Sequence record: PP400784 | Source: Escherichia phage FL38 | DNA length: 64,000 nucleotides | Strand: one strand, 5' to 3' | In this document: piece by piece, positions 14,352 through 63,623 of the stretch | Layout of the letters: each line of letters opens with the position of its first letter | Numbering within the stretch: the first letter of the stretch is position 1 | Notes under the pieces: generated by a model | The model's input: the letters and a program-made list of their open reading frames with translations, nothing else | The model's database searches: none | Told to the model about the DNA's origin: nothing | Translations under genes and position numbers: made by a program

Positions 14352-15110
14352 TTACTTGCAAACGTATTGATCTACATCAATTGCGCCACCGAATGTAGGG
14401 TGACGTTTTTCAAATCGAATAGTTCCGTCGTTTGGTTCGAAAACGGAGTATTCATATAGATCTTTCTTGCCAACATTCTTATAAAACCCGCCTTTAGTCA
14501 TAACGGTTTCTTGTACGTTTGCTTTGTGTACGTTGTATTCGTCAATGTATACAAAATCAACCATCTTCCCATTTTTAATGGTTACTTTAAGATCTCCTGG
14601 CTGGTTTCCATATTTTGCATACAGTGGAGCTTCTTTAATTTTGGTGGAAATTCCATCTTTAATACTCCACTCATAACGAACGGTGCATTGATAGGTAAAA
14701 GTTTCGACCTTCGGTTCTTCCACCATTTTTTCTTCCTGTTTCGGTTGTTCTTCTTCAACCTTCGCAGAAGTCTCTGAATCGCTTTCTGACGCGGTTTCTT
14801 CTTTAGGTAATACATTCATCAAGTTTTGGATTTGAGCGTTGTATACAGCCTCCAGTGGCTGAATCTGCCCGATATTGATCATTGTATCACGAACAGTTTT
14901 ATTCCAGTTGAGTTGCTCTTGTTTAAGAGACGGATCAATCTTAACAGCCTTAACATATACTTCATGAAGTTTCGAATCCAGTGCGGAGATTGACTCATTA
15001 GCACAAATAAACTTCTCTGATTTGGTAGTGGCTTTAGCGCAATCAAAGGACGCAGCATTAGCACCGAAAGCAGTAGCGGAAAGAACGATAGCAGCGATAA
15101 TGTTTTTCAT
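14352..15110 (-). CDS. secreted protein with LprI/DUF1311-like N-terminal domain (candidate periplasmic lysozyme inhibitor)
   Basis: Signal peptide MKNIIAAIVLSATAFGANA; then SFDCAKATTKSEKFICANESISALDSKLHEVY, typical of DUF1311; Glu-rich linker; Cys-bracketed C-terminal domain. Confidence 0.55.
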   Translation of the reverse strand: MKNIIAAIVLSATAFGANAASFDCAKATTKSEKFICANESISALDSKLHEVYVKAVKIDPSLKQEQLNWNKTVRDTMINIGQIQPLEAVYNAQIQNLMNVLPKEETASESDSETSAKVEEEQPKQEEKMVEEPKVETFTYQCTVRYEWSIKDGISTKIKEAPLYAKYGNQPGDLKVTIKNGKMVDFVYIDEYNVHKANVQETVMTKGGFYKNVGKKDLYEYSVFEPNDGTIRFEKRHPTFGGAIDVDQYVCK

Positions 15111-15138: not shown

Positions 15139-15173
15139 GGGAGTATCTTACTACTCCCTTAATCCGGTGTCAA
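15139..15173 (-). promoter_or_regulatory. early promoter with inverted repeat (type II): -35 TTGACA, GGGAGTA/TACTCCC arms flanking -10 TAAGAT
   Basis: Minus strand reads TTGACA-17 nt-TAAGAT with a 7-bp palindrome around the -10; upstream of 14352..15110. Confidence 0.5.
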
Positions 15174-15179
15174 CTATTT

Positions 15180-15335
15180 TTAAATTTCTTCTACAGTAAA
15201 GTCTTCAATGTTATTGTGCTCGGAGAACGTTGCCAGACCAGCATTCCATGCATCATCCTCAGAGAAGAATACACCGTAACGTTCATATCCTTTAGCGCCT
15301 TCAAATTTAACCATTAATTTGTGAGTATGTTTCAT
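15180..15335 (-). CDS. hypothetical protein (51 aa; start trimmed to internal ATG)
   Basis: Track ORF 15180..15398 begins inside the promoter palindrome; internal ATG MKHTHK has SD GGAGAATCAAA. Confidence 0.45.
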   Translation of the reverse strand: MKHTHKLMVKFEGAKGYERYGVFFSEDDAWNAGLATFSEHNNIEDFTVEEI

Positions 15336-15366
15336 TTTGATTCTCCTTCGTTGTCTTGATGAGTTC

Positions 15367-15396
15367 ATTGTAGGGGATCGGCGATCCCCTGTCAAC
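15367..15396 (-). promoter_or_regulatory. early promoter with palindromic spacer (type I): GTTGACA-GGGGATCGCCGATCCCC-TACAAT
   Basis: Perfect 17-nt palindrome fills the -35/-10 spacer exactly. Confidence 0.6.
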
Positions 15397-15405
15397 AACT
15401 ATTTT

Positions 15406-15618
15406 TTAATTTTTACCCGCTCGTGCATTAATACGCATTTTCTGAATAGCCATGATCTGGCTTACTGCTTCTTCTTTACGTTCTTGCGTGATAACGTGAC
15501 CAGATTCCGCAAACTCTCCCGCAACTTCTTCTACGATCTCGCGAACTTGAGAACGTCCAAAGATGCGGTTTCCTTCGTAGCTCATAAACTCGGTTACTAC
15601 TTGCTCGATAGATTTCAT
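15406..15618 (-). CDS. hypothetical protein (70 aa)
   Basis: ORF with SD; preceded by promoter/palindrome element. Confidence 0.5.
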   Translation of the reverse strand: MKSIEQVVTEFMSYEGNRIFGRSQVREIVEEVAGEFAESGHVITQERKEEAVSQIMAIQKMRINARAGKN

Positions 15619-15642: not shown

Positions 15643-15678
15643 GGGAGTATGTTAATACTCCCATTTCTTTACGTCAAC
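15643..15678 (-). promoter_or_regulatory. early promoter with inverted repeat (type II): TTGACG-17 nt-TAACAT inside GGGAGTAT/ATACTCCC
   Basis: Seen on minus strand upstream of 15406..15618. Confidence 0.5.
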
Positions 15679-15684
15679 CAGTTT

Positions 15685-15927
15685 TTAGAAATTTTTCGCT
15701 TCTTCTTCGGTCATCATCACCGCGCATTCGTGCATAACTTTGAAAACCGGATCAATCATATCGAATGCTTCGCGGGACAGTTTACGAGAAGCGATTTTGA
15801 TTGCTTCTACGTCTTCTACTACAGGAACAAAAACAGTTTTCAGTTCATCGAGAACGGCAGCTTCTTTTTCATTCAGGAAGATACCAGCGTCATACAGTGC
15901 AACTTCGATAACATTAACTTTAACCAT
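15685..15927 (-). CDS. hypothetical protein (80 aa)
   Basis: ORF in dense minus-strand array. Confidence 0.5.
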   Translation of the reverse strand: MVKVNVIEVALYDAGIFLNEKEAAVLDELKTVFVPVVEDVEAIKIASRKLSREAFDMIDPVFKVMHECAVMMTEEEAKNF

Positions 15928-15966
15928 TTTAATTCCTCCAGTTCGTTTAGGTATGGGAGTATAATA

Positions 15967-16191
15967 CTACCGATGACCTTTGGCGTCAACTGCTTTTTTA
16001 TTATTTTCGTGAAAATTTTTCGTCGCCTCATGTGCTTTTCGCTGGGCTTCTTGTTGTGCTTGCTGGCGTGCTGCCTCTTGTGAAGCCATAACGGAAGCAT
16101 TTGCAGCAGTTACAGCCGCTACCATCGCTGCGGTATTAGCATTTACAGTACATGCACTAGCCAGCAAAGCAATTGCAATCATTTTCTTCAT
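15967..16191 (-). CDS. small secreted/lipoprotein-like protein (74 aa)
   Basis: Signal peptide MKKMIAIALLASAC with possible lipobox, Ala/Gln-rich. Confidence 0.5.
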   Translation of the reverse strand: MKKMIAIALLASACTVNANTAAMVAAVTAANASVMASQEAARQQAQQEAQRKAHEATKNFHENNKKAVDAKGHR

Positions 16192-16358
16192 AGTTTCCCC
16201 TTTAGGTTATCTTCGACCTTCACCCATTCCGCGTATTCTTGCGCGGCTACTTTCGGATTTAGTCCGTCTTCGTACATTGCTTCAAGTAATGCTTCGTCGG
16301 TGGGCTTATACCCTAGATAAGCCTCCACCTGATTTTTCCAAATTTTATACCAGTTCAT
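16188..16358 (-). CDS. hypothetical protein (start uncertain; internal ATG MNWYKIW chosen)
   Basis: Track ORF 16188..16427 overlaps the upstream gene by 65 nt; the internal ATG removes the overlap. Confidence 0.35.
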   Translation of the reverse strand: MNWYKIWKNQVEAYLGYKPTDEALLEAMYEDGLNPKVAAQEYAEWVKVEDNLKGKL

Positions 16359-16362
16359 ATTA

Positions 16363-16635
16363 TCACCAGTCAAGAGCGCGTGTCTCTGCGTCTTCCCATG
16401 CTTGATCCATAACAGCCTTGAAAACATATTCTAAAGTATCATCTTTAGAGAATCCGAAGACCTTAGACGGAATATCTTCAATTGCTACTCCCGCGACTTC
16501 TGCATTACGCGCTTGGCAATAATGCAACTCTAAGTTATCGAGATAGCGACCGCCTAATTTCTCCATATCATCCCAGCATTTCCAGTAACCTACTTTATTT
16601 GCAATCGCTAACACCTTGCTGTTTTCGTTGTTCAT
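16363..16635 (-). CDS. hypothetical protein (90 aa; start trimmed to MNNENSK)
   Basis: SD AAAGGAGAATCAAAG before the internal ATG; track N-terminal extension reads through the leader. Confidence 0.5.
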   Translation of the reverse strand: MNNENSKVLAIANKVGYWKCWDDMEKLGGRYLDNLELHYCQARNAEVAGVAIEDIPSKVFGFSKDDTLEYVFKAVMDQAWEDAETRALDW

Positions 16636-16703
16636 CTTTGATTCTCCTTTTGTTTGGTATGTGTGTATTATGCAATGATGGATTTGTGAAGTCAACAACT
16701 TTT

Positions 16704-16736
16704 TAAAATAAAAAAGCCGACCACACGGATCGGCTT
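16704..16736 (-). terminator. intrinsic terminator after 16746..17141
   Basis: Minus strand AAGCCGATCCGTGTGGTCGGCTT then TTTTTATTTT; near-identical to the plus-strand hairpin at 6623. Confidence 0.6.
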
Positions 16737-16745
16737 AATAATCAG

Positions 16746-26239: not shown

Positions 26240-26908
26240 TTATCCCCTTTGTTTCTTAACTGAATTTGGATCTGGATTTTCTGGTAGGTCTTCCAGACCC
26301 ATAGCATAACGTTGTGCATAGATTAGCATAAGAATATCGCGAGCGCAATCATGAATTGCATCATGTGCGATAAAACCATCTAGCGTACCCATTGGTAACG
26401 GACACTCACACATCCCGCGATGCATCAATGTACGCTCAATGGCGGTGCGAACATCTCGGATATTCCAGAATCGCACAGGTTCAAGGCTGAACGTCTCTCG
26501 TGTATTGTGTGCACGTCGAATCATATCAACTAGTAATGGAATATCAAACGCATTACCGCGTGACCACATTACGGATTTAACCGGATCTACCCCTACGGAT
26601 TCACAGAATGCGTTAAAACGCGCTAAACCTTCTTTAGTTGATACTTCCGTACCATTTGTGATTAATTGCTTTCTCATGCCTTCTGAGGCGGTATTCTTCC
26701 ACCATTCAACCACACCATGATCAAACACCCTTACACCTTTCTGGGAAGGAATATCAAATTTTACCAGAAAGGAATTGTCAACCAGTTCTTTAAATGTAGG
26801 TGGATTGTGCGGATCTTCTTTAAATCCGATTGCCGCCATATTGATAACCGCCCCATCAGGCGGATAACCTAAACTTTCAAAGTCAATCATTAAATCCACT
26901 GGAAGCAT
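26240..26908 (-). CDS. dexA: exonuclease A (DnaQ-like 3'-5' exonuclease)
   Basis: Start trimmed to MLPVDLMIDFESLG (SD GGAGGA); DnaQ-like Exo motif; T4 dexA is 227 aa; position between 39 and dda. Confidence 0.7.
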   Translation of the reverse strand: MLPVDLMIDFESLGYPPDGAVINMAAIGFKEDPHNPPTFKELVDNSFLVKFDIPSQKGVRVFDHGVVEWWKNTASEGMRKQLITNGTEVSTKEGLARFNAFCESVGVDPVKSVMWSRGNAFDIPLLVDMIRRAHNTRETFSLEPVRFWNIRDVRTAIERTLMHRGMCECPLPMGTLDGFIAHDAIHDCARDILMLIYAQRYAMGLEDLPENPDPNSVKKQRG

Positions 26909-26909
26909 G

Positions 26910-27152
26910 TTAAATATCCTCCGCGATGTGCCGGAACAACTCCAGATCGTTTTTATCCAGAATGAAACCGCTACAATCAATAATCCCGTTACCGTAATTA
27001 TCGGTTAACAGTCGTTCCGTTGCCATGTATGCGCGTACTTTGTTGTTAAAATTCATTACATGTTGTGCATAGTCACAATGAATCTTTTGACGGTTCCACG
27101 CGACAATTGATTGTAGATGTATTACATTAGCCACATTATTAATAACAACCAT
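26910..27152 (-). CDS. hypothetical protein (80 aa; start chosen at ATG coupled to upstream stop)
   Basis: Track ORF 26910..27215 extends into the repeat; TGAnATG junction with the gene above. Confidence 0.45.
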   Translation of the reverse strand: MVVINNVANVIHLQSIVAWNRQKIHCDYAQHVMNFNNKVRAYMATERLLTDNYGNGIIDCSGFILDKNDLELFRHIAEDI

Positions 27153-36907: not shown

Positions 36908-39616
36908 TTAAATGTCAAACAGGTCTGTAAGAGATGCCACTTTTTCATATTGCAGCTTTGCAGCCGTGGTAATGTTCTCCAGTGGTTTGACGAAAGTCTT
37001 ATTAAACAACAAAGGCCAGTCTAACCACTTTAACACCTCTGATTCAATTTCTGGAGGAATACGAGTACCGGACAACCAACCAAAACAGATTTCTCCAAAC
37101 GGATTTCGATCTTTCAGCGGTACAATCATAACCTTCTCGCCTTCACGAATCGGATCTAGTCCGAATTTTCGAGCATTACGATTATAACACAATACACTCT
37201 TAACCGCATACGGACAACCCTTAATCGGATACCCGTTTGAATCGCTGTATTTCTGTAGGTTGTTTGCAGATGATACCGCAGCAACATCAAGATAGTCAAG
37301 TTTTCTAAATTCTTGCTCAAAAATACCGTAGTATTCCTGCAATGACTCTTCACCTTCCTGCAACATACGGCGAATACATTCTTTCAGTGATTTCTGACAT
37401 GCTTTAGGGGTGGAGCTACGTTGCGTTTCCAAGCCCATGATTTTTAGCTTAGGTTCAGCAAAGCGCGTTCCTTCCATATCCCAAACATTAAGAGCATAAC
37501 GCTTTTTACCAGTCCAGAATCCACCGATACCCGCAGATTTCAATGGAGGACCAGCAATTGCCTCACGGTCCATAAACATCAAGTGCTCATAGTTGTTCAT
37601 GTACTCGCATAACTCGCGATATCCCTTGTCGATAATAGGTTCCATTCGATGTTTACCGAAATTATCAAGGAAGTCAACAAGTTTTTCGGTATCGTCGAAA
37701 CGGTCTTCCCCGCCAACCTTATCAACAACATTGTTAACCAGCACATAAACGGAGTCAGTATCACAATAACGAACATATGCAAAATCGGTTGTTCCACAAA
37801 GCTCGTTTAAGTATTCGTTAATCTTACGCTCAATCCACTGAATTGCAAGCTGACCAAACAAGGTGATCGCACTAGCGTTACGGAGATCATAAAAACGGAA
37901 TTTAGGATTCCCCAACGCACCATAAAGGGAGTTGATCAAAACTTTACGAGAAAGCTGGTTTGTATTGCACAAGATCGACTCGTCTTTACATTCTTCCAGC
38001 AATTTCTCTAAGGCATCTTTACTTAATTCAGAAAGCATCGATTTAAACGCTTCATCAAAGTCGTGACGCACTTCAACGCTATAGTTAATGGTTCCTCCAT
38101 AAACATGATTTTCATCGTGTAGAATCGCTTTACAGAGTTCAGCATTGCGATCACATGCCAACATCATGTTTTTGTACTGCTTACGCTGATCGAATACCTT
38201 TTTAATCTCAATCGGTACGATACCGTGAATATCTTTTCTATACATCCATCCGTTAGGCGAGCAAGAATACTCATCACTCGGACGTGGTGCAGTTTTATTG
38301 ATATACTCGTGCATCGGTGCAGCATCAAAAGATCCAGCGATTGTTTCAGGCGAAATATTAACCTGTCGAATAATAGATGGGTACAGACTTGTTAAGTCAA
38401 AGCTCATCATCCAACGGTAAGCATTCGGCACAGGTTCTTTTACGAATGCGCCTGGATACGTCTGCTTAGGCTGTATCTTATTTTCCGGTACTACTTTACC
38501 CTCAGCTTTCAGAGATCCGAAGATAATAGCATCCCACACTTTCATCGGGTTATAAACATGGTTAAATTTAATCTTTGCATAGAAACATAGACTATACACC
38601 AGATCGATAAATCCACGCTTTTTATCAATCGCCAGAACACGATCAACGTCGCCGATGTTATAATCGATGTAAAGTTGATGGTTGTCATCACGCAATTTCT
38701 TTAACGGACCATCATAATCAACCTTACCGATTCCTGTCTCATATTCAGCAACATAATCTAATGCATATGTTGGTTGAGTCGTAAAGCTAAATTTCTTGTA
38801 CAGGTCAATATAATCAAGGCTTTCGATCCCCATGATCGTAAATGCTTCACGCTCGTTGCCAAAATCATCCTGTGAGATTCGGGATTTAATCTTACCGCAC
38901 GGGCTTAGACGGTTAGCGGTTCTACTTCCGAACTTATTACTGATACGTTTAATGATATATGGAATATCGAATGTTTCTGTGTTCCAGCCAGTGAAACCAA
39001 CGGGTCGGTTTTCCTCAAAGAATCGGATGTATTCTAACAGCAATTCATCTTCTGTGTCATAGACGTTATAAACAACGCGCTCTACAATATCAGGTCGAAG
39101 AATAGACTTGCTAGATTCCCAGATTTCACCGTTTTTTCCTTTCAAATCAAATACAAAGAAACGATCATGTACGGAATCATAATGCGTAATTGCATCGATA
39201 GGATATTTCGCTTCTTCTGGTTTAGGAAATTCTGGGGCAGTGACCTCGATATCAACCCATGCTACACGGATTTTATTTCGGTCATATCGAATCTCTCCTT
39301 TATACGTATCAGACAGATAGGAGATGATAAAATCATCCATCCCTAGCGCCTCTTGCCCCATTTCTCCCATCTTTTTACGCCATTTGTTGGCCTCGTTCAT
39401 AGAGGGGAATTTTTTAGCAATGCAAGGCTTGCCATAGATATCTTTATAATTCGTAACCATACCAGGCGCGGCATGATGAAATAAAGTTGGCGTATATTCA
39501 ACGTAACGCTCTTGTTCTTGTCCAGCATCATCAATATAACGCTCGTAGATCTTATCACCTACTCGCTCACATGACAGAAAATACATAATATAAACTCCTT
39601 CACTTACGAAAGACAC
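36908..39616 (-). CDS. 43: DNA polymerase (family B)
   Basis: 902 aa; YCDTDS polymerase motif; exonuclease motifs; T4 gp43 is 898 aa. Confidence 0.95.
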   Translation of the reverse strand: MSFVSEGVYIMYFLSCERVGDKIYERYIDDAGQEQERYVEYTPTLFHHAAPGMVTNYKDIYGKPCIAKKFPSMNEANKWRKKMGEMGQEALGMDDFIISYLSDTYKGEIRYDRNKIRVAWVDIEVTAPEFPKPEEAKYPIDAITHYDSVHDRFFVFDLKGKNGEIWESSKSILRPDIVERVVYNVYDTEDELLLEYIRFFEENRPVGFTGWNTETFDIPYIIKRISNKFGSRTANRLSPCGKIKSRISQDDFGNEREAFTIMGIESLDYIDLYKKFSFTTQPTYALDYVAEYETGIGKVDYDGPLKKLRDDNHQLYIDYNIGDVDRVLAIDKKRGFIDLVYSLCFYAKIKFNHVYNPMKVWDAIIFGSLKAEGKVVPENKIQPKQTYPGAFVKEPVPNAYRWMMSFDLTSLYPSIIRQVNISPETIAGSFDAAPMHEYINKTAPRPSDEYSCSPNGWMYRKDIHGIVPIEIKKVFDQRKQYKNMMLACDRNAELCKAILHDENHVYGGTINYSVEVRHDFDEAFKSMLSELSKDALEKLLEECKDESILCNTNQLSRKVLINSLYGALGNPKFRFYDLRNASAITLFGQLAIQWIERKINEYLNELCGTTDFAYVRYCDTDSVYVLVNNVVDKVGGEDRFDDTEKLVDFLDNFGKHRMEPIIDKGYRELCEYMNNYEHLMFMDREAIAGPPLKSAGIGGFWTGKKRYALNVWDMEGTRFAEPKLKIMGLETQRSSTPKACQKSLKECIRRMLQEGEESLQEYYGIFEQEFRKLDYLDVAAVSSANNLQKYSDSNGYPIKGCPYAVKSVLCYNRNARKFGLDPIREGEKVMIVPLKDRNPFGEICFGWLSGTRIPPEIESEVLKWLDWPLLFNKTFVKPLENITTAAKLQYEKVASLTDLFDI

Positions 39617-40611: not shown

Positions 40612-41600
40612 TATACGAACTCCAATTCAACCATTAATTGCATTAACAAAAAGACAATGTGAATCTCTTTATCAGCCGCGTGCGCAAACATCTGATTATT
40701 TTCACCGATAATCTCAGTGAGACGAATAATAGAAGCTGGCTTAACTTGAGTATACAACTCATTATAAAGTTTCTTGACAAATTGAGCGTATGTATTGGTA
40801 TATCGCGGCGCAAGTTTACGCACATTAGCAAACTGTTTAGTTTTAAGTGCTTCCACCACATCGGTTACTTCGGTATTGCTACTTTCGATAACCATGCTCA
40901 ATACGCCAGCATCAATTTTACCATGTTTAGCGTAGCGGTCCAAAAGTTTCATTACGCGTCGGAAGTCTGGGAAGTTCTGTTTAACCAGTTCCGCTAATAC
41001 GCGCATTTCTTCTACTGGCACACCTTCTTTATCAAGAATTGCTTTACACCGGACGATCATTTCTTTCATCATGCGAAGCTGATCATCTTTAGTCGGAGAT
41101 CCAAACGTTATGGGGTCAAATCGAGATCGTAACGCTGGGATAATACCTTCTAGATCGTTTGCTGTGATAATGAATGTCACATTGTTTGAGTATGCCTCAG
41201 AGAAACTACGCAAGTGTCTTTGAGCGTCAGCCAACCCCGCTCGGTCATACTCATCGATAATAACAACTTTGCCTTTTTCTCTTTTTTCTTCATCGAGTGA
41301 TACACTCTGCGCAAAGCGTGTAATCTCATCGCGGATAAAATCAATCTTACAATCTGCGCCGTTAACAAACAGATAATCAACACCCACATCTTCGCAAAGC
41401 GCCTTAGCAACGGTTGTTTTACCAGTACCCGGCGATGGGCTATGCAGGATCATAGAAGGGATTCGGCCTTGCTTAACAATCTGCGCGAAGATCTTTTTAT
41501 CTGCTTCCGGCAGAATACATTCAGAAATTGATTTCGGACGGTATTTCTGTTCCCACTGAAACTCATTTTCATTAACACTCAGCATATAATCACCTCTCAC
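40611..41600 (-). CDS. 44: clamp loader large subunit (AAA+ ATPase)
   Basis: 329 aa; Walker A SPSPGTGKTT; T4 gp44 is 319 aa. Confidence 0.9.
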   Translation of the reverse strand: MRGDYMLSVNENEFQWEQKYRPKSISECILPEADKKIFAQIVKQGRIPSMILHSPSPGTGKTTVAKALCEDVGVDYLFVNGADCKIDFIRDEITRFAQSVSLDEEKREKGKVVIIDEYDRAGLADAQRHLRSFSEAYSNNVTFIITANDLEGIIPALRSRFDPITFGSPTKDDQLRMMKEMIVRCKAILDKEGVPVEEMRVLAELVKQNFPDFRRVMKLLDRYAKHGKIDAGVLSMVIESSNTEVTDVVEALKTKQFANVRKLAPRYTNTYAQFVKKLYNELYTQVKPASIIRLTEIIGENNQMFAHAADKEIHIVFLLMQLMVELEFV

Positions 41601-41618
41601 AAATTACATCATTAAAAC

Positions 41619-41639
41619 GGGGAGTATTTTATACTCCCC
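41619..41639 (-). other. stem-loop between genes 45 and 44
   Basis: GGGGAGTAT-AAA-ATACTCCCC followed by GTTTT on minus strand; possible partial terminator or RNA structure. Confidence 0.4.
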
Positions 41640-41651
41640 ACAAACATTATA

Positions 41652-42341
41652 TTAGTCGGTGTAGCTGGAGTCAAGGTCACACGCGATCATATAAGATACG
41701 GTTTCACTTGCCAGCCATACAGCCTTACGGCGAGTGAAGCTCAGTTTGTAATCGCCGAAGTCAGTAGCAACCAGTTTCATGTTATCTTTACGAATAAAGA
41801 AATGGAAGTCTGCGGTTCCGGTATATTCGCCCATATCAAGACAAAACATCTCATTAGGATTATTTTTGTCAATCTCTTCCCAACCTTTGATCATCAGACG
41901 ACCATCAATCGGAAGAAATTCAAGGCGATCCACTTTAAGCTGATTGCTCATTTTCATAAGCTGTTTCAGATCGTCATTGCTCAGTTCGTAATCTACATCG
42001 CTTGCAGGTGGAGTAACTCGGCCTTTCGGTGATACGATAGCAGCAGCACTAGCACCAGGGTAATTAATTTTCAGACGATCATTAGACACACGAATGTTAC
42101 CAGTGCGGTCATCAACCGTAATATCTGCTTCATCGCCTACCAGATTCAGAATACCCAAGAAAGAGTTAAGATCATAGATCCCAATTTCGTGTTCCAGTTC
42201 TTGATTCAGAGTCGCTTCACCATATACAACGTTTGTCATGTTTTTGGTGATCAGGACGTTTCCTTTTTTCAGGATGATACCTGGGTTAATAGCGGAAAAG
42301 TTTTTCAGGGTAGCAATGGTTTCTTTAGTCAGTTTCATCAA
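41652..42341 (-). CDS. 45: sliding clamp
   Basis: 229 aa; N-terminus MKL.K.T.A.LKNF..IN.GI.LK and overall similarity to T4 gp45 (228 aa). Confidence 0.9.
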   Translation of the reverse strand: MMKLTKETIATLKNFSAINPGIILKKGNVLITKNMTNVVYGEATLNQELEHEIGIYDLNSFLGILNLVGDEADITVDDRTGNIRVSNDRLKINYPGASAAAIVSPKGRVTPPASDVDYELSNDDLKQLMKMSNQLKVDRLEFLPIDGRLMIKGWEEIDKNNPNEMFCLDMGEYTGTADFHFFIRKDNMKLVATDFGDYKLSFTRRKAVWLASETVSYMIACDLDSSYTD

Positions 42342-46436: not shown

Positions 46437-46466
46437 AGTATAACGGGGATTTCTCCCCGCGTCAAC
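46437..46466 (-). promoter_or_regulatory. early promoter with palindromic spacer (type I): TTGACG-CGGGGAGAAATCCCCG-TATACT
   Basis: Spacer is an inverted repeat; overlaps the gp47 stop. Confidence 0.55.
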
Positions 46467-47491
46467 TAACTTTTTGCGCTATTTACCTCGGCTAAAAGTT
46501 CATCAGAAATACGCTTGACCGCCGCAAGTTCTTCCGGTTCTAGGTTTTGTTCTTCCAGATATTCATATACCATCTGAATAGTGCTTTTAACTTCAATAAC
46601 ACCTGTTTCCTGTGATGCGCTACTCTCCAGTTTATGGACCACTTTTAGCTTGTGTACAACGGCCTCTAACGCGCTTTCTAACTTAGTTAACCCATTATCA
46701 GCAACCGTTGCAATAAGACGCACACTAAGCCCCTTAAAGCGTTCTACATCGATTTTATCATCTGACGGGTAAGTGATACGCACATGATAAGTTTTGTCAT
46801 TCTGGATAAACTCTTTTTTGTGTGTATCGGTATCGAATACCCAAAACCCACGCGGATCGTTTTCGTCACCCGCCGTTAGTGTGTATGGTGTACCGATATA
46901 CGTTACATTACCGCCATCGCTGATAGTATGAAAATGACCGGAAAACACTTCACGGTATTTCTTGAGGAAGTCCGCGCTATAACCTTCGGATTTTAGCCCT
47001 TTATAGAAATAGTAACCGGACAATTCCCAATGGCCTACACAATATTCGCTGAATGAGTTTTGAATAAACTCTAAAATCTCTGATTTATTGTCATCACAAA
47101 ACCACGGGAACAGATCAAATGATACACCATCAAAGGTAACTGTTTCCGGTTTATCGATAACCTTAATGCAATCATACTGGCTTAACACTTCACGCGGTGC
47201 GTTAGGCTGGATCTTGTTTCGTTTAAACATATCATGGTTCCCGACCGTGATATAACAAGTAATTCCAGCCTCTTCCAGTAATGGGATGACCTTAGTACGG
47301 TTAAATTTCATGGTTTCATGGGTAATTGCTTTTCGGCAATCAAACCAATCCCCTGTTTGAATCCATGTCTTAATATTATGCTCTTTGGAGTATTCAACCG
47401 CCTTCTTGATGGTATCAAGAATATACTCATGCACCCACGGATCATCGCCACCGATACCAGTATGCAGATCACCTAAAAGCAAAATTTTCAT
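46466..47491 (-). CDS. 47: recombination endonuclease subunit (SbcD/Mre11-like)
   Basis: 341 aa; MKILLLGDLH phosphoesterase motif; T4 gp47 is 339 aa. Confidence 0.9.
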   Translation of the reverse strand: MKILLLGDLHTGIGGDDPWVHEYILDTIKKAVEYSKEHNIKTWIQTGDWFDCRKAITHETMKFNRTKVIPLLEEAGITCYITVGNHDMFKRNKIQPNAPREVLSQYDCIKVIDKPETVTFDGVSFDLFPWFCDDNKSEILEFIQNSFSEYCVGHWELSGYYFYKGLKSEGYSADFLKKYREVFSGHFHTISDGGNVTYIGTPYTLTAGDENDPRGFWVFDTDTHKKEFIQNDKTYHVRITYPSDDKIDVERFKGLSVRLIATVADNGLTKLESALEAVVHKLKVVHKLESSASQETGVIEVKSTIQMVYEYLEEQNLEPEELAAVKRISDELLAEVNSAKS

Positions 47492-47581
47492 AGTCTCTTC
47501 CTCTCTTCGTTTTCGATGCTCTCACTATATCACAGAAAAATAAAAAGGGAAACCCCTTTCAGAGTCTCCCTTATAAAGCCA

Positions 47582-53884: not shown

Positions 53885-53914
53885 AGTATAGGGGATCTCG
53901 CGATCCCCGTCAAG
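53885..53914 (-). promoter_or_regulatory. early promoter with palindromic spacer (type I): TTGACG-GGGATCGCGAGATCCCC-TATACT
   Basis: Inverted repeat fills the spacer. Confidence 0.55.
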
Positions 53915-55002: not shown

Positions 55003-55069
55003 GTTGTCCTCTCGTTGTTTTCGATGTGAGCATTATACATTAGCTAATCATGTTGTCAACACCCCAAAA

Positions 55070-55097
55070 CGAAAAAGCCGACCCTTTCGGATCGGCT
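55070..55097 (-). terminator. intrinsic terminator after nrdD
   Basis: Minus strand AGCCGATCCGAAAGGGTCGGCT then TTTTTC; same arm sequence as hairpins at 6623 and 16714. Confidence 0.55.
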
Positions 55098-57009: not shown

Positions 57010-57504
57010 TTATTTTACCAGTTCTGCTAATTCTTTTTCTTTAGCTTCTAGTTCAGCTTTAAGCTGTTTAATCTCTTGTCGCTTCTTATTAGCGGCTTCT
57101 TGCTTACTATTTCGGATAACCTGATCTAGATACAACTCCCAATCCTGAATATTTTTGATAATGTAACCGTCAACATTAATTGGTCGGAGATTCAGTACAG
57201 CTTCCAGTTTAGTCGCAAAAACTTTAATTGCTGGTGTGAAGTATTCATATTCGTTATCTTCAAACCAATAACCTAGACTTGCATTATCAATACGAAGACG
57301 AAGTTCAAGATCAAGGTCTTTATCTTCGGTGTAAAGATCTTTCACCTGACCCAGCGAACTAACAACAACTTTAAAACGAATTTTATCTACACCACCAAAC
57401 ACATCAGTAAGGATACCAGCAATTGAGCTATTAGCGCAAGATTGGTCGCTGAATGCGTCAAGGTTTTCTTTAGTTACAGTATACCAAACATCTTGTACCC
57501 ACAT
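57010..57504 (-). CDS. hypothetical protein, possibly divergent member of the repeat-domain family (coiled-coil C-terminus)
   Basis: YWFEDNEYEYF and KQLKAELEAKEKELAEL tail; weak similarity only. Confidence 0.45.
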   Translation of the reverse strand: MWVQDVWYTVTKENLDAFSDQSCANSSIAGILTDVFGGVDKIRFKVVVSSLGQVKDLYTEDKDLDLELRLRIDNASLGYWFEDNEYEYFTPAIKVFATKLEAVLNLRPINVDGYIIKNIQDWELYLDQVIRNSKQEAANKKRQEIKQLKAELEAKEKELAELVK

Positions 57505-57528: not shown

Positions 57529-57563
57529 GGGAGTATTATAGCATACTCCCTTCGCATGTCAAG
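57529..57563 (-). promoter_or_regulatory. early promoter with inverted repeat (type II): TTGACA-16 nt-TATAAT within GGGAGTAT/ATACTCCC
   Basis: The -10 TATAAT sits in the loop of an 8-bp inverted repeat. Confidence 0.55.
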
Positions 57564-58737
57564 CACTAACTTTTTTCTTTACTGCTTTCACCTTCTGGCG
57601 AATTGCTCGAATCTCTTCGATCTCTTTTTCAGTCTCTTTAACAATTTCTTTGCGATTCTGAATATCTGTATCTAGATTATCATCAAGTTTAGGCAGCATG
57701 TCAATCAAGAACTTTTTAAAGTCTTTCAGGTTTCGGATAACAGCACCTTCACCCATTACCGCCACGCCTACACCATCCGGCAGATCACCAAACAGCTTAA
57801 CCAGTTCAGACAGATGATCATGATCTTCTAGTGCTTCTTCCGGTTCAGATGGCAGTTCAACAAAGTTATAACGTTCATCATTGCTGATCAGGTGATACCA
57901 GCAAAGCCCAAAAGATTTAGGAGTATATTCTACACCACCAACTTCAACTGCGTCAACACTTCCGAAAGAATCTACTTTAGTTACCTTAAATCCATGTTCC
58001 AGCGTTTTAATAATTTCAATAACATGACTGGATACGGTTTCAGTATTAAACCAATGAGGCAAATTATGTGGATTTGGCTTGTATCGTTCGCCTACTTTAA
58101 ATCTCTGACCACGCTCTTGCATACGGACATATTCAACTCGCGTGATTTCCGCGAAGTATTCAAATTCGCTACCGTCAAACAAGCAATTCCATTGATCACA
58201 AAAACGGTCCGCCTTGACGGTTTCACCTTTCGCGGTGATCATGGTAGCTGATCCGTGCAATTCTTCTTCAACTAAAAAGCCATATTCGACAAAATCAACA
58301 AGTTTCATGGCTTCTTTGTGCTCTGGGTCATGCTCTCCCCAGAATCGCTTAAATTCTTGCAAACCTTCTGGGGTAAACGAATAACATTTACCTTTTTCAA
58401 AGTAAGTCGGCATTGCATCCTCTTTCTTGTTCATCGCTTCGTATGCCTCTTTTGAGATACGTTTAAAGTATTTGCGCTCATTGTGCATAATCATAGTAGA
58501 CCAATAATAAACGATATCCTCAGCGGAATAAACTACATCTCCAGCTTCAATAGTAATAACATGACCGTGGTCATCTTTTTCTAATACTTTAAAGCCCTTT
58601 TCTACGATTTCAGCAACCCGAATATGACCACGGCGCGAAGCATCGGTCAGAATAATTGAATAGCGAGAAAAGTCTAGAAACTCATCTTTACCGCCTTCAC
58701 GGAATGCATAGTAATGACCTTCAAAGAATTTAGCCAT
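57559..58737 (-). CDS. repeat-domain family protein (3 tandem domains + helical tail)
   Basis: Three units each with F.xG.YY...GFKV...ERKYF/ERYNF, then tail with NLKDFKKFLIDMLP. Confidence 0.6.
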   Translation of the reverse strand: MAKFFEGHYYAFREGGKDEFLDFSRYSIILTDASRRGHIRVAEIVEKGFKVLEKDDHGHVITIEAGDVVYSAEDIVYYWSTMIMHNERKYFKRISKEAYEAMNKKEDAMPTYFEKGKCYSFTPEGLQEFKRFWGEHDPEHKEAMKLVDFVEYGFLVEEELHGSATMITAKGETVKADRFCDQWNCLFDGSEFEYFAEITRVEYVRMQERGQRFKVGERYKPNPHNLPHWFNTETVSSHVIEIIKTLEHGFKVTKVDSFGSVDAVEVGGVEYTPKSFGLCWYHLISNDERYNFVELPSEPEEALEDHDHLSELVKLFGDLPDGVGVAVMGEGAVIRNLKDFKKFLIDMLPKLDDNLDTDIQNRKEIVKETEKEIEEIRAIRQKVKAVKKKVSA

Positions 58738-58762
58738 AATATAATCCTCTCGTTGTTTAGAT

Positions 58763-58797
58763 GGGAGTATCTTACTACTCCCGTTTCATCATGTCAA
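58763..58797 (-). promoter_or_regulatory. early promoter with inverted repeat (type II): TTGACA-17 nt-TAAGAT within GGGAGTA/TACTCCC
   Basis: Palindrome identical to the one at 15139. Confidence 0.55.
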
Positions 58798-59378
58798 GCG
58801 TTAAATGACTTTTGGATCTCTTTCAGTTCAGCTACTTTATCTGCGCTGAATTTAGCGTAGGTATCATGTCGAATAATTTCACTTTCAAGAAAGGTTTCCA
58901 GTCGAGATCTATTTTCAATAAGGAACTCTTTCAGGTCTTCCGCGTTCTTGACAAAGATTTTATTGTCGGTAATGTCATCTTCAATCGCAAAGGAGATAGA
59001 GCGAACTTTACCAAACAAGTTAATCAGATCTTCCAGAGATTCTTCTTTCTTAACTGGTTTCATTTCTTCAAACTGCTTTTTAGTGATGCGTTTAAAGTAT
59101 TTGCGCTCGCTTGCATCAATCATGATTGACGCACCCTCATAATCATGAGTTTCTACCAAATACACTTTACCCATAACATTAACCGTAAGAACTTTAAAGC
59201 CCCTGTGAAGCACACCATACAGGAACTTGTTATGTTGTGGGTAGCGTTTAACAAATTCCTCTGCGGACTCAGCATTACGGAAAGTGTAATAACGACCTCG
59301 TTCAAAAACAGCATCATTTGAAGACTTAGCCGGATACAATTTATACGTTTTCTGTACCATAATATAATCCTCTATCAT
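58794..59378 (-). CDS. repeat-domain family protein (1 domain + helical tail)
   Basis: FERGRYYTF...GFKVL...ERKYFKRI, tail with AEDLKEFLIEN. Confidence 0.6.
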   Translation of the reverse strand: MIEDYIMVQKTYKLYPAKSSNDAVFERGRYYTFRNAESAEEFVKRYPQHNKFLYGVLHRGFKVLTVNVMGKVYLVETHDYEGASIMIDASERKYFKRITKKQFEEMKPVKKEESLEDLINLFGKVRSISFAIEDDITDNKIFVKNAEDLKEFLIENRSRLETFLESEIIRHDTYAKFSADKVAELKEIQKSFNA

Positions 59379-59707
59379 TTCACTAATTGAACAGCACGGA
59401 ACAGAATGCGCTCACACGGAAGCAGCATAAATTCCCAACGCGGATCAAAGTCTTTAGCGGTGTATGTTTTCCCATCAACCGAGATTTCACTTACATAACC
59501 AACAGGTGACACTTTAAGAACAGTAAACCCATTCTTGATGACTTCGTAGGTATATTTCACCCCTTCGTATTCATCATCTAAGAAGTCTTTATGTGCTTGC
59601 TCAGATTTAAAAACATAGGCAACACCGGATTTAAACATCTTACGCATTGTTGATTCTCCTTCTTGATTAGATGGGAGTATTTTACTACTCCCATTTCTTA
59701 TTGTCAA
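59375..59707 (-). CDS. repeat-domain family protein (single domain, no tail)
   Basis: MFKSGVAYVF...GFTVLKV...ERILFRAV. Confidence 0.55.
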   Translation of the reverse strand: MTIRNGSSKILPSNQEGESTMRKMFKSGVAYVFKSEQAHKDFLDDEYEGVKYTYEVIKNGFTVLKVSPVGYVSEISVDGKTYTAKDFDPRWEFMLLPCERILFRAVQLVK

Positions 59708-59708
59708 C
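59673..59708 (-). promoter_or_regulatory. early promoter with inverted repeat (type II): GTTGACA-17 nt-TAAAAT within GGGAGTA/TACTCCC
   Basis: Between gene 49 and the family gene 59375..59707. Confidence 0.55.
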
Positions 59709-62869: not shown

Positions 62870-62938
62870 AATATAATCCTCACATCGTTCATTTGATGCG
62901 GTTATTATATGATAACCGCATTTTCATGTCAACAGTTT

Positions 62939-63313: not shown

Positions 63314-63536
63314 AGTATGCTTTTTCTACATACTCGCCATTGATCCAAGCGGCAGTAACAATCAGAGTGGTCCAGGTAGATCCGCTCTCAACGGTAAAGG
63401 TTTTAATACCCAGCTTCGCTGCCAAGTCGAACGCAAACCGGACGCAACCACGACAGGAAGTGATGTTGGAAGTTTTGATTTTAAAGCCACCGCGAGTTTT
63501 AGAAATTTCTACTTTAGCGAAAGACAGGTTGCTCAT
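63258..63536 (-). CDS. hypothetical protein (92 aa; start trimmed to MSNLSFAK)
   Basis: SD AAGGAGAATCAAA before the internal ATG; the track start reads through the promoter. Confidence 0.45.
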   Translation of the reverse strand: MSNLSFAKVEISKTRGGFKIKTSNITSCRGCVRFAFDLAAKLGIKTFTVESGSTWTTLIVTAAWINGEYVEKAYFDIFYDYEEKCFYALQDM

Positions 63537-63578
63537 TTTGATTCTCCTTAAGAAAGTGTGTTTCGTTTTGATGTGTGT

Positions 63579-63608
63579 AGTATAGGGGATCACCGATCCC
63601 CTGTCAAC
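63579..63608 (-). promoter_or_regulatory. early promoter with palindromic spacer (type I): GTTGACA-GGGGATCGGTGATCCCC-TATACT
   Basis: Perfect 17-nt palindrome as spacer. Confidence 0.6.
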
Positions 63609-63623
63609 AACTTTTTTATGATT

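What the first reader, a model, noticed from the sequence alone, without database searches (positions are those of the whole stretch)
57529..57563. Type II early promoters with the -10 hexamer inside the loop of a GGGAGTA/TACTCCC inverted repeat
A second recurring cassette is seen at 15139..15173, 15643..15678, 57529..57563, 58763..58797 and 59673..59708, with an imperfect copy near 15950..15990. In each, TTGAC(A/G) is followed 16-17 nt later by a -10-like hexamer (TATAAT, TAAGAT, TAAAAT, TAACAT) flanked by the arms GGGAGTA(T) and (A)TACTCCC. The cassettes sit between almost every gene of the paralog clusters and the small-ORF array, which is consistent with mobile regulatory cassettes that duplicate genes together with their promoter.
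Basis: partly seen in the sequence, partly recalled or inferred. Interest (0 to 1): 0.6.

Follow-up and report, generated by a model that had tools for sequence, protein, structure and literature searches.

The report
Known phage promoter–hairpin cassettes (PeSLs)
These are real early promoters of an RB49-like T4-type coliphage whose -10 box sits inside a short hairpin, but they are the already published 'PeSL' promoter/stem-loop cassettes, so the finding is correct and ordinary.

Summary
On the minus strand, five cassettes read TTGAC(A/G)-N16/17-TAnnnT, with GGGAGTA(T)/(A)TACTCCC arms around the -10, then an SD and a start codon. The window is a Krischvirus (RB49-like, ~97-99% identity). These are the PeSL (promoter-early stem-loop) cassettes of RB49/phi1 (Arbiol 2010; Comeau 2014), in the published subclass 'stem-loop overlapping the -10 box'. 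RB49 PeSL193/192, cloned in that work, is itself a copy of this family. New support found here:
- The arms are kept by compensatory and G·U changes that pair only on the sense strand.
- Other arm sequences occupy the same register.
- In RB49, embedded hairpins and canonical upstream terminators never co-occur (27 vs 9, 0 both, P=7e-4).
- In the 14.3-16.8 kb array, 7 of 11 indel breakpoints against 13 relatives fall inside cassettes (P=0.002).

The 'genes duplicated with their promoter' idea is not supported, because near-identical cores precede unrelated genes or only 30-35% identical paralogues. The hairpins lack a U-tract, so termination by this subclass is inferred, not shown. Verdict: already known, low interest.

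The parts
57529..57562 (-). Type II cassette core. -35 TTGACA 57562-57557 (overlaps the TGA stop of the upstream 392-aa gene); 5' arm GGGAGTAT 57550-57543; -10 TATAAT 57540-57535; 3' arm ATACTCCC 57536-57529. SD GAGAGGA and ATG at 57504 (164-aa ORF). Homologue of the RB49 cassette between frd.2 (ORF058) and ORF057.
   Evidence: annotated as a promoter in GEC-3S
58763..58797 (-). Type II cassette core. -35 TTGACA 58797-58792; 5' arm GGGAGTA 58782-58776; -10 TAAGAT 58774-58769; 3' arm TACTCCC 58769-58763. ATG at 58737 (392-aa frd.2/goF-like gene).
59673..59707 (-). Type II cassette core, just downstream of gene 49 (endonuclease VII). -35 TTGACA 59707-59702; 5' arm 59692-59686; -10 TAAAAT 59684-59679; 3' arm 59679-59673. 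ATG at 59647 (90-aa ORF).
   Evidence: promoter in the GEC-3S record; annotated as a + strand terminator in the TB34 record
15139..15173 (-). Type II cassette core. -35 TTGACA 15173-15168; arms 15158-15152 and 15145-15139; -10 TAAGAT 15150-15145. ATG at 15110 (252-aa ORF). Its AT-rich leader (~15187) is a recurrent indel breakpoint.
15643..15677 (-). Type II cassette core. -35 TTGACG 15677-15672; arms 15662-15655 and 15650-15643; -10 TAACAT 15654-15649. ATG at 15618 (70-aa ORF). Breakpoints lie at 15698 (leader) and 15636 (5'UTR).
15955..15989 (-). Degenerate type II copy. -35 TTGACG; -10 TATTAT followed by ACTCCC; 5' arm decayed to GGTAGTA, so only a weak hairpin forms. ATG at 15927 (80-aa ORF). 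It lies inside the segment that RB49 lacks.
41620..41638 (-). Hairpin with the same arms (GGGGAGTAT-AAA-ATACTCCCC) but no -35 in register. It sits between the gene 45 stop and the gene 44 start and is followed by GTTTTAATG, so the context is terminator-like.
15367..15395 (-). Neighbouring cassette of another PeSL class: a GGGGATCGCCGATCCCC hairpin between -35 and -10. Together with its 51-aa ORF it forms the unit 15187-15396, which is absent from five relatives.
62904..62932 (-). A -10-overlapping cassette with different arms (GCGGTTAT/ATAACCGC) in the same register.
63579..63607 (-). Cassette with hairpin GGGGATCGGTGATCCCC between -35 and -10. The stretch 63533-63617 is 93% identical to RB49 PeSL211/210, whose stem-loop was the one tested as a terminator in the literature.
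16667..16740 (-). PeSL of the 'terminator upstream of -35' class: GCCGATC-CGTGTG-GTCGGC plus a T-run, then TTGACT-17-CATAAT. Its 5'UTR (16631-16669) is an insertion/deletion junction in four relatives.
15698..16201 (-). Segment of two small ORFs plus one cassette. It is present here but absent from RB49, JSE, Phi1, AV108, pEJ01 and JK32. Its right junction lies in the AT-rich leader of the 15677 cassette.

Best explanation
These are PeSL (promoter-early stem-loop) cassettes of an RB49-like Krischvirus, in the published subclass whose stem-loop overlaps the -10 box. Each cassette is a self-contained expression unit. It has an AT-rich, UP-like leader that holds the upstream gene's stop codon, then a near-consensus sigma70 promoter used by host RNA polymerase right after infection. 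Transcription is predicted to start at the A just after ACTCCC, followed by an A/C-rich 5'UTR with a strong SD and the start codon. Because the start site lies 3' of the palindrome, the hairpin is not in the cassette's own mRNA. It can form only in RNA read through from the upstream gene, or on the non-template DNA strand. The most likely role (inferred) is as an attenuator or 3'-end structure for upstream transcripts, insulating each small gene unit. This is the same job done by canonical terminators placed upstream of the -35 in other PeSLs. The repeated cassettes also provide 14-23 bp identical blocks at which homologous recombination deletes, inserts and swaps the intervening genes. Shown here: the motif, its conservation, the base-pair constraint and the breakpoint association. 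Published: promoter activity of related PeSLs, terminator activity of one PeSL stem-loop of another subclass, and mini-circle formation. Inferred: termination by this subclass.
For: Identity: the window is 95-99% identical to RB49 and other Krischvirus genomes. The five cassettes have RB49 homologues at 36985, 38220, 39130, 158746 and 159253. Literature: PeSLs are defined as a sigma70 promoter, an AT-rich leader, a Gn-loop-Cn stem-loop and an SD. There are five positional subclasses, with 'overlapping the -10 box' among the commonest, and about 51 in RB49. RB49 PeSL193/192, cloned for promoter assays and flanking the mini-circle gene ORF192, reads TTGAAA-17-TAAGAT with GGGAGTG...TACTCCC, so it belongs to this family. 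Independent annotators mark these sites as promoters. Published 5'-end mapping and consensus give C at -3 to -1, which fits a start just after ACTCCC. Structure: the hairpins fold at -5.4 to -8.5 kcal/mol as DNA, with z from -3.3 to -6.1. Among 24 distinct cores, 97.2% of pair cells are paired and two pairs show compensatory changes: A-U to G-C in RB49 paralogues, and G-C to U-A in the JK32 orthologue. All four one-sided changes that still pair are G·U on the sense strand. 0 of 500 shuffles reach the covariation score. Other arm pairs sit in the same register: GGGGGTA/TACCCCC, GGGTGTA/TACACCC, GGGGATA/TATCCCC and GCGGTTA/TAACCGC. Terminator equivalence: of 53 RB49 promoter+SD+ORF units, 27 have an embedded hairpin, 9 have an upstream hairpin plus T-tract, and none have both (Fisher P = 7e-4). 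The same arms occur with a U-tract between genes 45 and 44. Recombination: only 24 of 58 relatives cover at least 80% of 14.3-16.8 kb. 7 of 11 breakpoint sites lie in cassette footprints that make up 19% of the region (P = 0.0016). Chimeric cassettes are seen in ECD7, MIZ4 and Brandy.
Against: No U-tract follows the hairpin on the sense strand in any type II copy, and the terminator scan does not call them on that strand. They are therefore not canonical intrinsic terminators. The only published terminator assay used a stem-loop of a different subclass (PeSL211/210, between -35 and -10). The covariation sets were collected with patterns that required near-matches or at least 6 of 7 pairs, so the 'percent paired' figure is biased upward. 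The copies are also related by descent. The 57-60 kb cassettes show no associated indels among 58 relatives. No transcript mapping is available for these particular sites.
Confidence: 0.85

Rival explanations
1. The palindrome is an operator. A dimeric phage or host DNA-binding protein binds the two half-sites over the -10 and shuts off this subset of early promoters.
For: It is a perfect dyad overlapping the -10, as in many repressor operators. RB49 has no MotA or middle mode, so how early genes are shut off is open. The half-sites are highly conserved.
Against: Half-site spacing varies: 5, 6, 8 and 9 nt between the 7-nt arms. Different arm sequences occupy the same place and each is complementary to its own partner. 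The substitutions are compensatory or G·U on one strand only, which matters for a folded single strand and not for a duplex recognition site. Embedded hairpins are mutually exclusive with upstream terminators.
Confidence: 0.05
2. The inverted repeat has no function of its own. It hitch-hikes in a promoter cassette that spreads and is homogenised by recombination or gene conversion, so its conservation only reflects recent common descent.
For: Cassettes share 14-23 nt identical blocks in mosaic combinations. RB49's single cassette at 159253 looks like a mosaic of two window cassettes. The degenerate copy at 15989 is still kept in seven relatives.
Against: Compensatory double changes occur, and there are at least five different complementary arm pairs in one register. 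The loop and spacer vary while the arms stay paired. The exclusivity with terminators gives P = 7e-4.
Confidence: 0.07
3. The structure acts at the DNA level. A non-template-strand hairpin or a cruciform either modulates promoter melting or is cut by junction-resolving endonuclease VII, making the cassettes recombination hot spots.
For: The ssDNA hairpins are stable, with z down to -6. G·T wobbles on the sense (non-template) strand fit this model as well as they fit RNA. Published mini-circle junctions include one inside a stem-loop's loop. Breakpoints cluster in cassettes.
Against: The stems are only 7-9 bp, which is short for cruciform extrusion (general knowledge). A cruciform needs both strands to pair, but the wobble variants would be A·C mismatches on the other strand. 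Most breakpoints mapped here lie in the AT-rich leader or the 5'UTR/SD, not in the palindrome.
Confidence: 0.06
4. The hairpin is a terminator for antisense (+ strand) transcription entering the early region.
For: The + strand scan calls 59669-59696 terminator-like. The TB34 record annotates that site as a + strand terminator. The + strand tails of two copies are T-rich.
Against: Only 2 of 5 copies have T-rich + strand tails. The natural wobble variants pair on the minus-strand transcript and would be mismatched on the + strand.
Confidence: 0.03

Closest known systems
PeSL (promoter-early stem-loop) cassettes of coliphages RB49 and phi1, subclass with the stem-loop overlapping the -10 box (Arbiol et al. 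2010, PMC2839356)
   Same: Same phage lineage and homologous positions. Same anatomy: AT-rich leader with the upstream stop codon, near-consensus sigma70 hexamers, Gn-loop-Cn stem-loop over the -10, SD and ATG. Same location upstream of ORFans in hyperplastic regions, and same association with indels. RB49 PeSL193/192 carries the same arms.
   Different: Nothing essential. This genome has a slightly different complement: an extra degenerate copy at 15989 inside a two-ORF segment that RB49 lacks, and TAACAT instead of TATTAT in the 15677 copy. Termination was tested in the literature only for a stem-loop of another subclass.
PeSLs of T4/PST and KVP40/nt-1 (Comeau et al. 2014, PMC4122927)
   Same: A composite promoter plus stem-loop plus SD unit in hyperplastic regions, next to indels and replacements.
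   Different: In those phages the stem-loops lie just upstream of the promoter and use other consensus stems (AGnA/TCnT; A3-4G3/C3T3-4). The promoters follow the T4-type early consensus rather than TTGACA-N17-TATAAT.
Canonical Rho-independent (intrinsic) terminators
   Same: A G+C-rich 7-9 bp hairpin in the 3' untranslated region of the upstream gene. It is mutually exclusive with true terminators in RB49 cassettes.
   Different: No U-tract on the sense strand. Only the 41620 copy has one.
Repressor operators that overlap the -10 hexamer (general class)
   Same: Dyad symmetry centred near the -10.
   Different: Variable half-site spacing, interchangeable arm sequences, and strand-specific wobble tolerance.

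Membership tests
PeSL cassette (RB49/phi1 type) | Near-consensus sigma70 promoter: TTGACA-like -35, 16-18 nt spacer, TAnnnT -10 | tested here: met
   All six copies have TTGAC(A/G) and a 16 or 17 nt spacer, scoring 10-12 of 12 hexamer matches.
PeSL cassette (RB49/phi1 type) | [quoted passage not shown] | tested here: met
   Examples are gaaatttAAAAATAG-TTGACA, aaaaaagttagtgcTTGACA (stop TGA inside the -35) and ttcTAAaaactgg-TTGACG.
PeSL cassette (RB49/phi1 type) | Stable Gn-loop-Cn stem-loop at one of five positions, here overlapping the -10 | tested here: met
   Stems of 7-9 bp and loops of 4-6 nt, with z from -3.3 to -6.1 as DNA. The structure is predicted in RNA folds. The positional class is recovered genome-wide in RB49.
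PeSL cassette (RB49/phi1 type) | Shine-Dalgarno sequence and start codon of the downstream gene at the 3' end | tested here: met
   GGAG/GAGG motifs lie 5-9 nt before an ATG, 25-30 nt after the 3' arm. The ORFs are 70-392 aa.
PeSL cassette (RB49/phi1 type) | Early-gene orientation, mostly upstream of ORFans in hyperplastic regions | tested here: met
   All 12 RB49 family members and all window copies are on the minus (early) strand, upstream of hypothetical proteins.
PeSL cassette (RB49/phi1 type) | Association with insertion, deletion or replacement breakpoints between close relatives | tested here: met
   In the 15 kb array, 7 of 11 breakpoint sites lie in cassette footprints (P = 0.0016), and chimeric cassettes are seen. 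This is not seen at the 57-60 kb cluster, which is syntenic in 56 of 58 relatives.
PeSL cassette (RB49/phi1 type) | Sequence homology to the published RB49/phi1 elements | tested here: met
   Orthologous copies occur in RB49 at 95-98% regional identity. PeSL193/192 shares the arms and the -10.
PeSL cassette (RB49/phi1 type) | Promoter activity in vivo | not testable with these tools
   It is published for PeSL206/205. For PeSL193/192, nearly all clones carried -35/-10 mutations, which the authors read as toxicity from high strength. RB49 early 5' ends are reported to match the consensus.
PeSL cassette (RB49/phi1 type) | Stem-loop terminates or attenuates upstream transcription | not testable with these tools
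   It is published only for the PeSL211/210 stem-loop, which belongs to the class between -35 and -10. The only support here is indirect: exclusivity with canonical terminators.
PeSL cassette (RB49/phi1 type) | Formation of mini-circles by recombination between neighbouring cassettes | not testable with these tools
   It is published for the ORF192 and ORF210 regions.
Intrinsic (Rho-independent) terminator | G+C-rich hairpin immediately followed by a U-tract on the transcribed strand | tested here: not met
   The hairpin is present, but the tails are AUCUAAUCAAG, ACUUAACAACG, ACACCGAAACG and the like. There is no minus-strand call in the scan. The exception is 41620.
Dimeric-repressor operator | Fixed spacing and fixed sequence of the two half-sites | tested here: not met
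   The arm-to-arm gap is 5, 6, 8 or 9 nt, and at least five alternative complementary arm pairs exist.
Any Rfam RNA family | Match at the gathering threshold | tested here: not met
   There are 0 matches in the whole window.

The most novel reading that the evidence does not exclude
The hairpins embedded in the promoter core are a U-tract-independent kind of transcript-boundary element whose action depends on being fused to a strong promoter. For example, the sense-strand hairpin might form on the nascent RNA or the non-template DNA just as the reading-through polymerase meets promoter-bound RNA polymerase or sigma70 at the -10. One 35-bp module would then both stop the upstream transcript and start the next. 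The strict exclusivity with canonical terminators and the sense-strand-only wobble tolerance are compatible with this. No published assay has tested the -10-overlapping subclass.
Probability: 0.1. Interest if true: 0.55.

Novelty: already known. Interest (0 to 1): 0.15.

Why it matters
PeSL cassettes explain how T4-type phages carry dozens of small accessory genes as independently expressed, easily swapped units. This matters for host-range evolution and for engineering therapeutic phages. This finding adds no new kind of element. The work here extends the two-genome study to 13 relatives at one hyperplastic region and confirms that breakpoints sit in the cassettes. It adds base-pair covariation and strand-specific wobble evidence that the stem itself is selected. 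It also shows that embedded hairpins and canonical terminators are mutually exclusive in RB49. The one open point is mechanistic: how, or whether, a hairpin without a U-tract embedded in a promoter core terminates upstream transcription.

Tried and rejected
(1) A fixed 7-nt gap pattern found nothing because the gaps are 5, 6 and 8 nt. The variable-gap pattern found six copies.
(2) Co-duplication of gene plus promoter was rejected. The downstream proteins are unrelated or only 30-35% identical, while the cores are near-identical.
(3) The canonical terminator reading was rejected for the sense strand. The antisense terminator reading was considered and judged unlikely from the wobble pattern.
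(4) The operator reading was rejected on spacing and covariation.
(5) Rfam gave no family.
(6) The IMG/VR scan for the composite motif returned Krischvirus-like contigs plus a few unrelated contigs. In the unrelated ones (L005, L008, L013, L015 and others) the arms follow TTGACA, but the spacing rules out the same promoter architecture. I treated these as unrelated and did not follow them up.
(7) Desplats et al. 2002 (RB49 5'-end mapping, PMC135041) is not held, and the supplements of Arbiol 2010 are not held. The exact sequences in that paper's Fig. 2 could therefore not be compared. I inferred membership of the subclass from the text and from the RB49 sequence itself.
(8) The second covariation set (A2) was selected for at least 6 of 7 pairs. 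Its 'percent paired' figure is circular, and only the diversity of complementary arm pairs is used from it.

Full report
WHAT IS THERE. Read on the plus strand, the listed sites show GGGAGTA...TACTCCC followed by GTCAA. The genes here run on the minus strand, where each site reads as one unit. The unit is an AT-rich leader, TTGAC(A/G), a 16 or 17 nt spacer, a TAnnnT hexamer, ACTCCC, an A/C-rich 5'UTR with a GGAG/GAGG Shine-Dalgarno, and ATG. The -35 boxes start at 57562, 58797, 59707, 15173, 15677 and 15989. The -10 hexamers are TATAAT, TAAGAT, TAAAAT, TAAGAT, TAACAT and TATTAT. The exact palindrome GGGAGTA-N4-10-TACTCCC occurs six times against 0.00 expected. The half-site occurs 16 times against 3.5 expected. 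It has no -35 in register, lies between genes 45 and 44, and is followed by GTTTTAATG. The stem is 7-9 bp with a 4-6 nt loop. The -10 fills the 3' part of the loop and its last one or two bases open the 3' arm. The 15989 copy has a decayed 5' arm.

WHERE IT COMES FROM. The window is a Krischvirus, an RB49-like T4-type coliphage. All 58 matching records are Krischvirus-type coliphages at 90-99% identity, led by phages FL37 and AV108. The window aligns to RB49 at 95-99%. The five perfect promoter cassettes have RB49 homologues at 36985, 38220, 39130, 158746 and 159253.

IT IS ALREADY DESCRIBED. Arbiol et al. 2010 (PMC2839356) defined 'promoter-early stem-loop' cassettes (PeSLs) in RB49 and phi1. 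A PeSL is a sigma70-consensus promoter with an AT-rich upstream region, a stable stem-loop rich in G then C, and the SD and start of the next gene. There are about 51 per genome, mostly upstream of ORFans in hyperplastic regions. Five subclasses are distinguished by stem-loop position, and the commonest are 'between the -35 and -10' and 'overlapping the -10 box'. The authors proposed the stem-loops as terminators or attenuators. They proposed the cassettes as recombination substrates that shuffle genes, and they detected mini-circles. Comeau et al. 2014 (PMC4122927) summarise the RB49/phi1 stems as 'GN-loop-CN' and extend the concept to T4/PST and KVP40/nt-1. RB49 PeSL193/192 was cloned in that work and flanks the mini-circle gene ORF192. 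It is 93% identical to PeSL211/210, the element whose stem-loop was tested as a terminator. GEC-3S annotators independently marked these sites as promoters. Nolan et al. 2006 report that the RB49 early consensus has C at -3 to -1 and agrees with mapped 5' ends. That places the start just after ACTCCC.

GENOME-WIDE PICTURE. RB49 has 12 members of this family, all on the early strand upstream of hypothetical genes. Six are perfect GGGAGTA/TACTCCC. Three are GGGGGTA/TACCCCC. One each is GGGGGTA/TACTCCC, TGGAGTA/TACTCCC and GGGAGTG/TACTCCC. A scan for promoter+SD+ORF units finds 53 in RB49, close to the published 51. Of these, 27 carry a hairpin embedded in the promoter core, 9 carry a canonical hairpin plus T-tract just upstream of the -35, and none carry both (Fisher P = 7e-4). 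The -10-overlapping class also uses other arms in the same register: GGGTGTAT/ATACACCC, GGGGATAT/ATATCCCC and GCGGTTAT/ATAACCGC. In IMG/VR the composite motif recurs, in promoter context, only in Krischvirus-like contigs.

IS THE STEM SELECTED? Across window, RB49, 13 further Krischvirus loci (GEC-3S at two regions) and the IMG/VR relatives, the spacer and loop vary. For example, orthologues differ between TAAAAT and TAAGAT and between TAACAT and TATTAT. The arms stay paired. In 24 distinct cores, 97.2% of pair cells are paired and two pairs show changes on both sides. These are A-U to G-C, and G-C to U-A in the JK32 orthologue of the 15173 cassette. 0 of 500 shuffles reach the covariation score. 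All four one-sided changes that keep pairing are G·U on the minus (sense) strand, and they would be A·C on the other strand. With so few events this is suggestive only, but it points to a folded sense strand (RNA or non-template DNA) rather than a duplex protein site or a cruciform. There is a caveat. The copies were collected with patterns requiring near-matches, and set A2 required at least 6 of 7 pairs. The paired percentages are therefore inflated, and the sequences are related by descent.

HOW IT PROBABLY WORKS. The promoter part is straightforward: a strong host-polymerase early promoter with a UP-like leader. This rests on the sequence and on published assays of sister cassettes. Because the start lies 3' of the palindrome, the hairpin is absent from the cassette's own mRNA. 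It lies about 10-35 nt after the upstream stop codon, and at 57562 the stop TGA sits inside the -35. It can therefore form in read-through RNA from the upstream gene. The exclusivity with real terminators suggests the embedded hairpin does the terminator's job of ending or attenuating the upstream transcript, or stabilising its 3' end. The reuse of the same arms, with a U-tract, between genes 45 and 44 points the same way. However, no type II copy has a U-tract on the sense strand, and the published terminator assay used another subclass. This step is inference, at roughly even odds.

RECOMBINATION. Only 24 of 58 relatives cover at least 80% of 14.3-16.8 kb, against 56 of 58 for 56.5-60.5 kb. 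Recurrent junctions against 13 relatives are as follows:
- 15187/15396: loss of exactly one cassette plus a 51-aa ORF, in five phages.
- 15186/15416: replacement by an unrelated ORF, in two phages.
- 15698/16201: two ORFs plus one cassette, absent from six phages including RB49.
- 15636/16639: the ECD7 deletion, which leaves a chimeric cassette joined in the SD region.
- 16631-16669: a gene insertion in Brandy, pEJ01 and JK32. Brandy's insert ends with its own type II cassette.

Seven of eleven breakpoint sites fall in cassette footprints that occupy 19% of the region (P = 0.0016). Most lie in the AT-rich leader or the 5'UTR/SD, as Arbiol et al. suggested. Cassettes share 14-23 nt identical blocks in mosaic combinations. 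RB49's 159253 cassette looks like a mosaic of two window cassettes. phi1's ORFan263.1, listed in the paper as unique to phi1, sits in this same array.

WHAT IS NOT SUPPORTED. The claim 'duplicate genes together with their promoter' is not supported. The three frd.2/goF-like genes at 57.6-59.6 kb are only 30-35% identical, and one of them has no cassette. The other cassette-led genes (164, 70, 252 and 80 aa) are unrelated. Near-identical cores in front of unrelated or anciently diverged genes fit exchange between cassettes, not co-duplication.

RIVALS. An operator for a dimeric repressor is unlikely. The half-site spacing is 5-9 nt, the arm sequences are interchangeable, and wobble tolerance is strand-specific. 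Pure hitch-hiking is unlikely given the compensatory changes and the terminator exclusivity. A DNA-level hairpin or cruciform acting as a recombination hot spot or promoter modulator is not excluded. But the stems are short, the wobble variants would not pair on the other strand, and most junctions lie outside the palindrome. An antisense terminator is suggested by one plus-strand scan hit and by the TB34 annotation. Only two of five copies have T-rich plus-strand tails, and the wobble pattern argues against it. No Rfam family matches.

VERDICT. Novelty: already known. Interest: low. The residual open question is how a promoter-embedded hairpin without a U-tract would terminate transcription.

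Noticed in passing
window 41620-41638 (-), context 41585-41680: This is a hairpin GGGGAGTAT-AAA-ATACTCCCC with the same arms as the type II cassettes. It lies between the gene 45 stop and the gene 44 start, downstream of a TTGACT-17-TATAAT match, and is followed by GTTTTAATG. In RB49 it reads GGGGAGTG-TAAA-TACTCCCC, and that record annotates the loop as a 'hypothetical late promoter'.
   Followed up: partly
window 63579-63607, 53885-53913, 46437-46465, 15367-15395 (-): A second cassette class has a G4ATC...GATC4-type hairpin exactly filling the -35/-10 spacer. The copy at 63533-63617 is 93% identical to RB49 PeSL211/210.
   Followed up: partly
RB49 genome (L002, L018, L019, L020), minus strand: Of 53 promoter+SD+ORF units, 27 have a hairpin embedded in the promoter core, 9 have a canonical hairpin plus T-tract upstream of the -35, and none have both (Fisher P = 7e-4). 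I did not find this exclusivity stated in the PeSL papers I could read.
   Followed up: yes
window 55032-55097 and 16667-16740 (-): These are PeSLs of the 'terminator upstream of the -35' class. The terminator's T-run doubles as the AT-rich leader, and there is no embedded hairpin.
   Followed up: partly
window ~47488-47492: RB49 carries an HNH endonuclease gene (RB49 26380-26934) at this point. The window lacks it, leaving a clean 566-bp presence/absence difference that is not associated with a cassette.
   Followed up: no
window 14352-15110 (-), especially 14370-14709: The C-terminal half of the 252-aa ORF, which has a signal-peptide-like N-terminus, is replaced by divergent sequence in MIZ6, GEC-3S, JSE, Phi1 and AV108. 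This is an intragenic mosaic junction unrelated to the cassettes.
   Followed up: no
window 57559-59647 (-): Three adjacent frd.2/goF-like genes (90, 188 and 392 aa) are 30-35% identical paralogues. The 392-aa protein contains an internal repeat of the shared module.
   Followed up: partly
L005, L008, L013, L015 (IMG/VR contigs, not Krischvirus): Four unrelated viral contigs share TTGACAT(A/G)AGAAAAGGGAGTAGAATTACTCCC followed by a T-rich tail. The arms are the same, the loop is 4 nt, and the spacing is incompatible with the cassette's promoter architecture.
   Followed up: no
L033 3373-3400 (TB34), equivalent to window 59672-59699: The TB34 GenBank record annotates this palindrome as a plus-strand terminator, antisense to the genes. 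The simple scan also calls it on that strand.
   Followed up: partly
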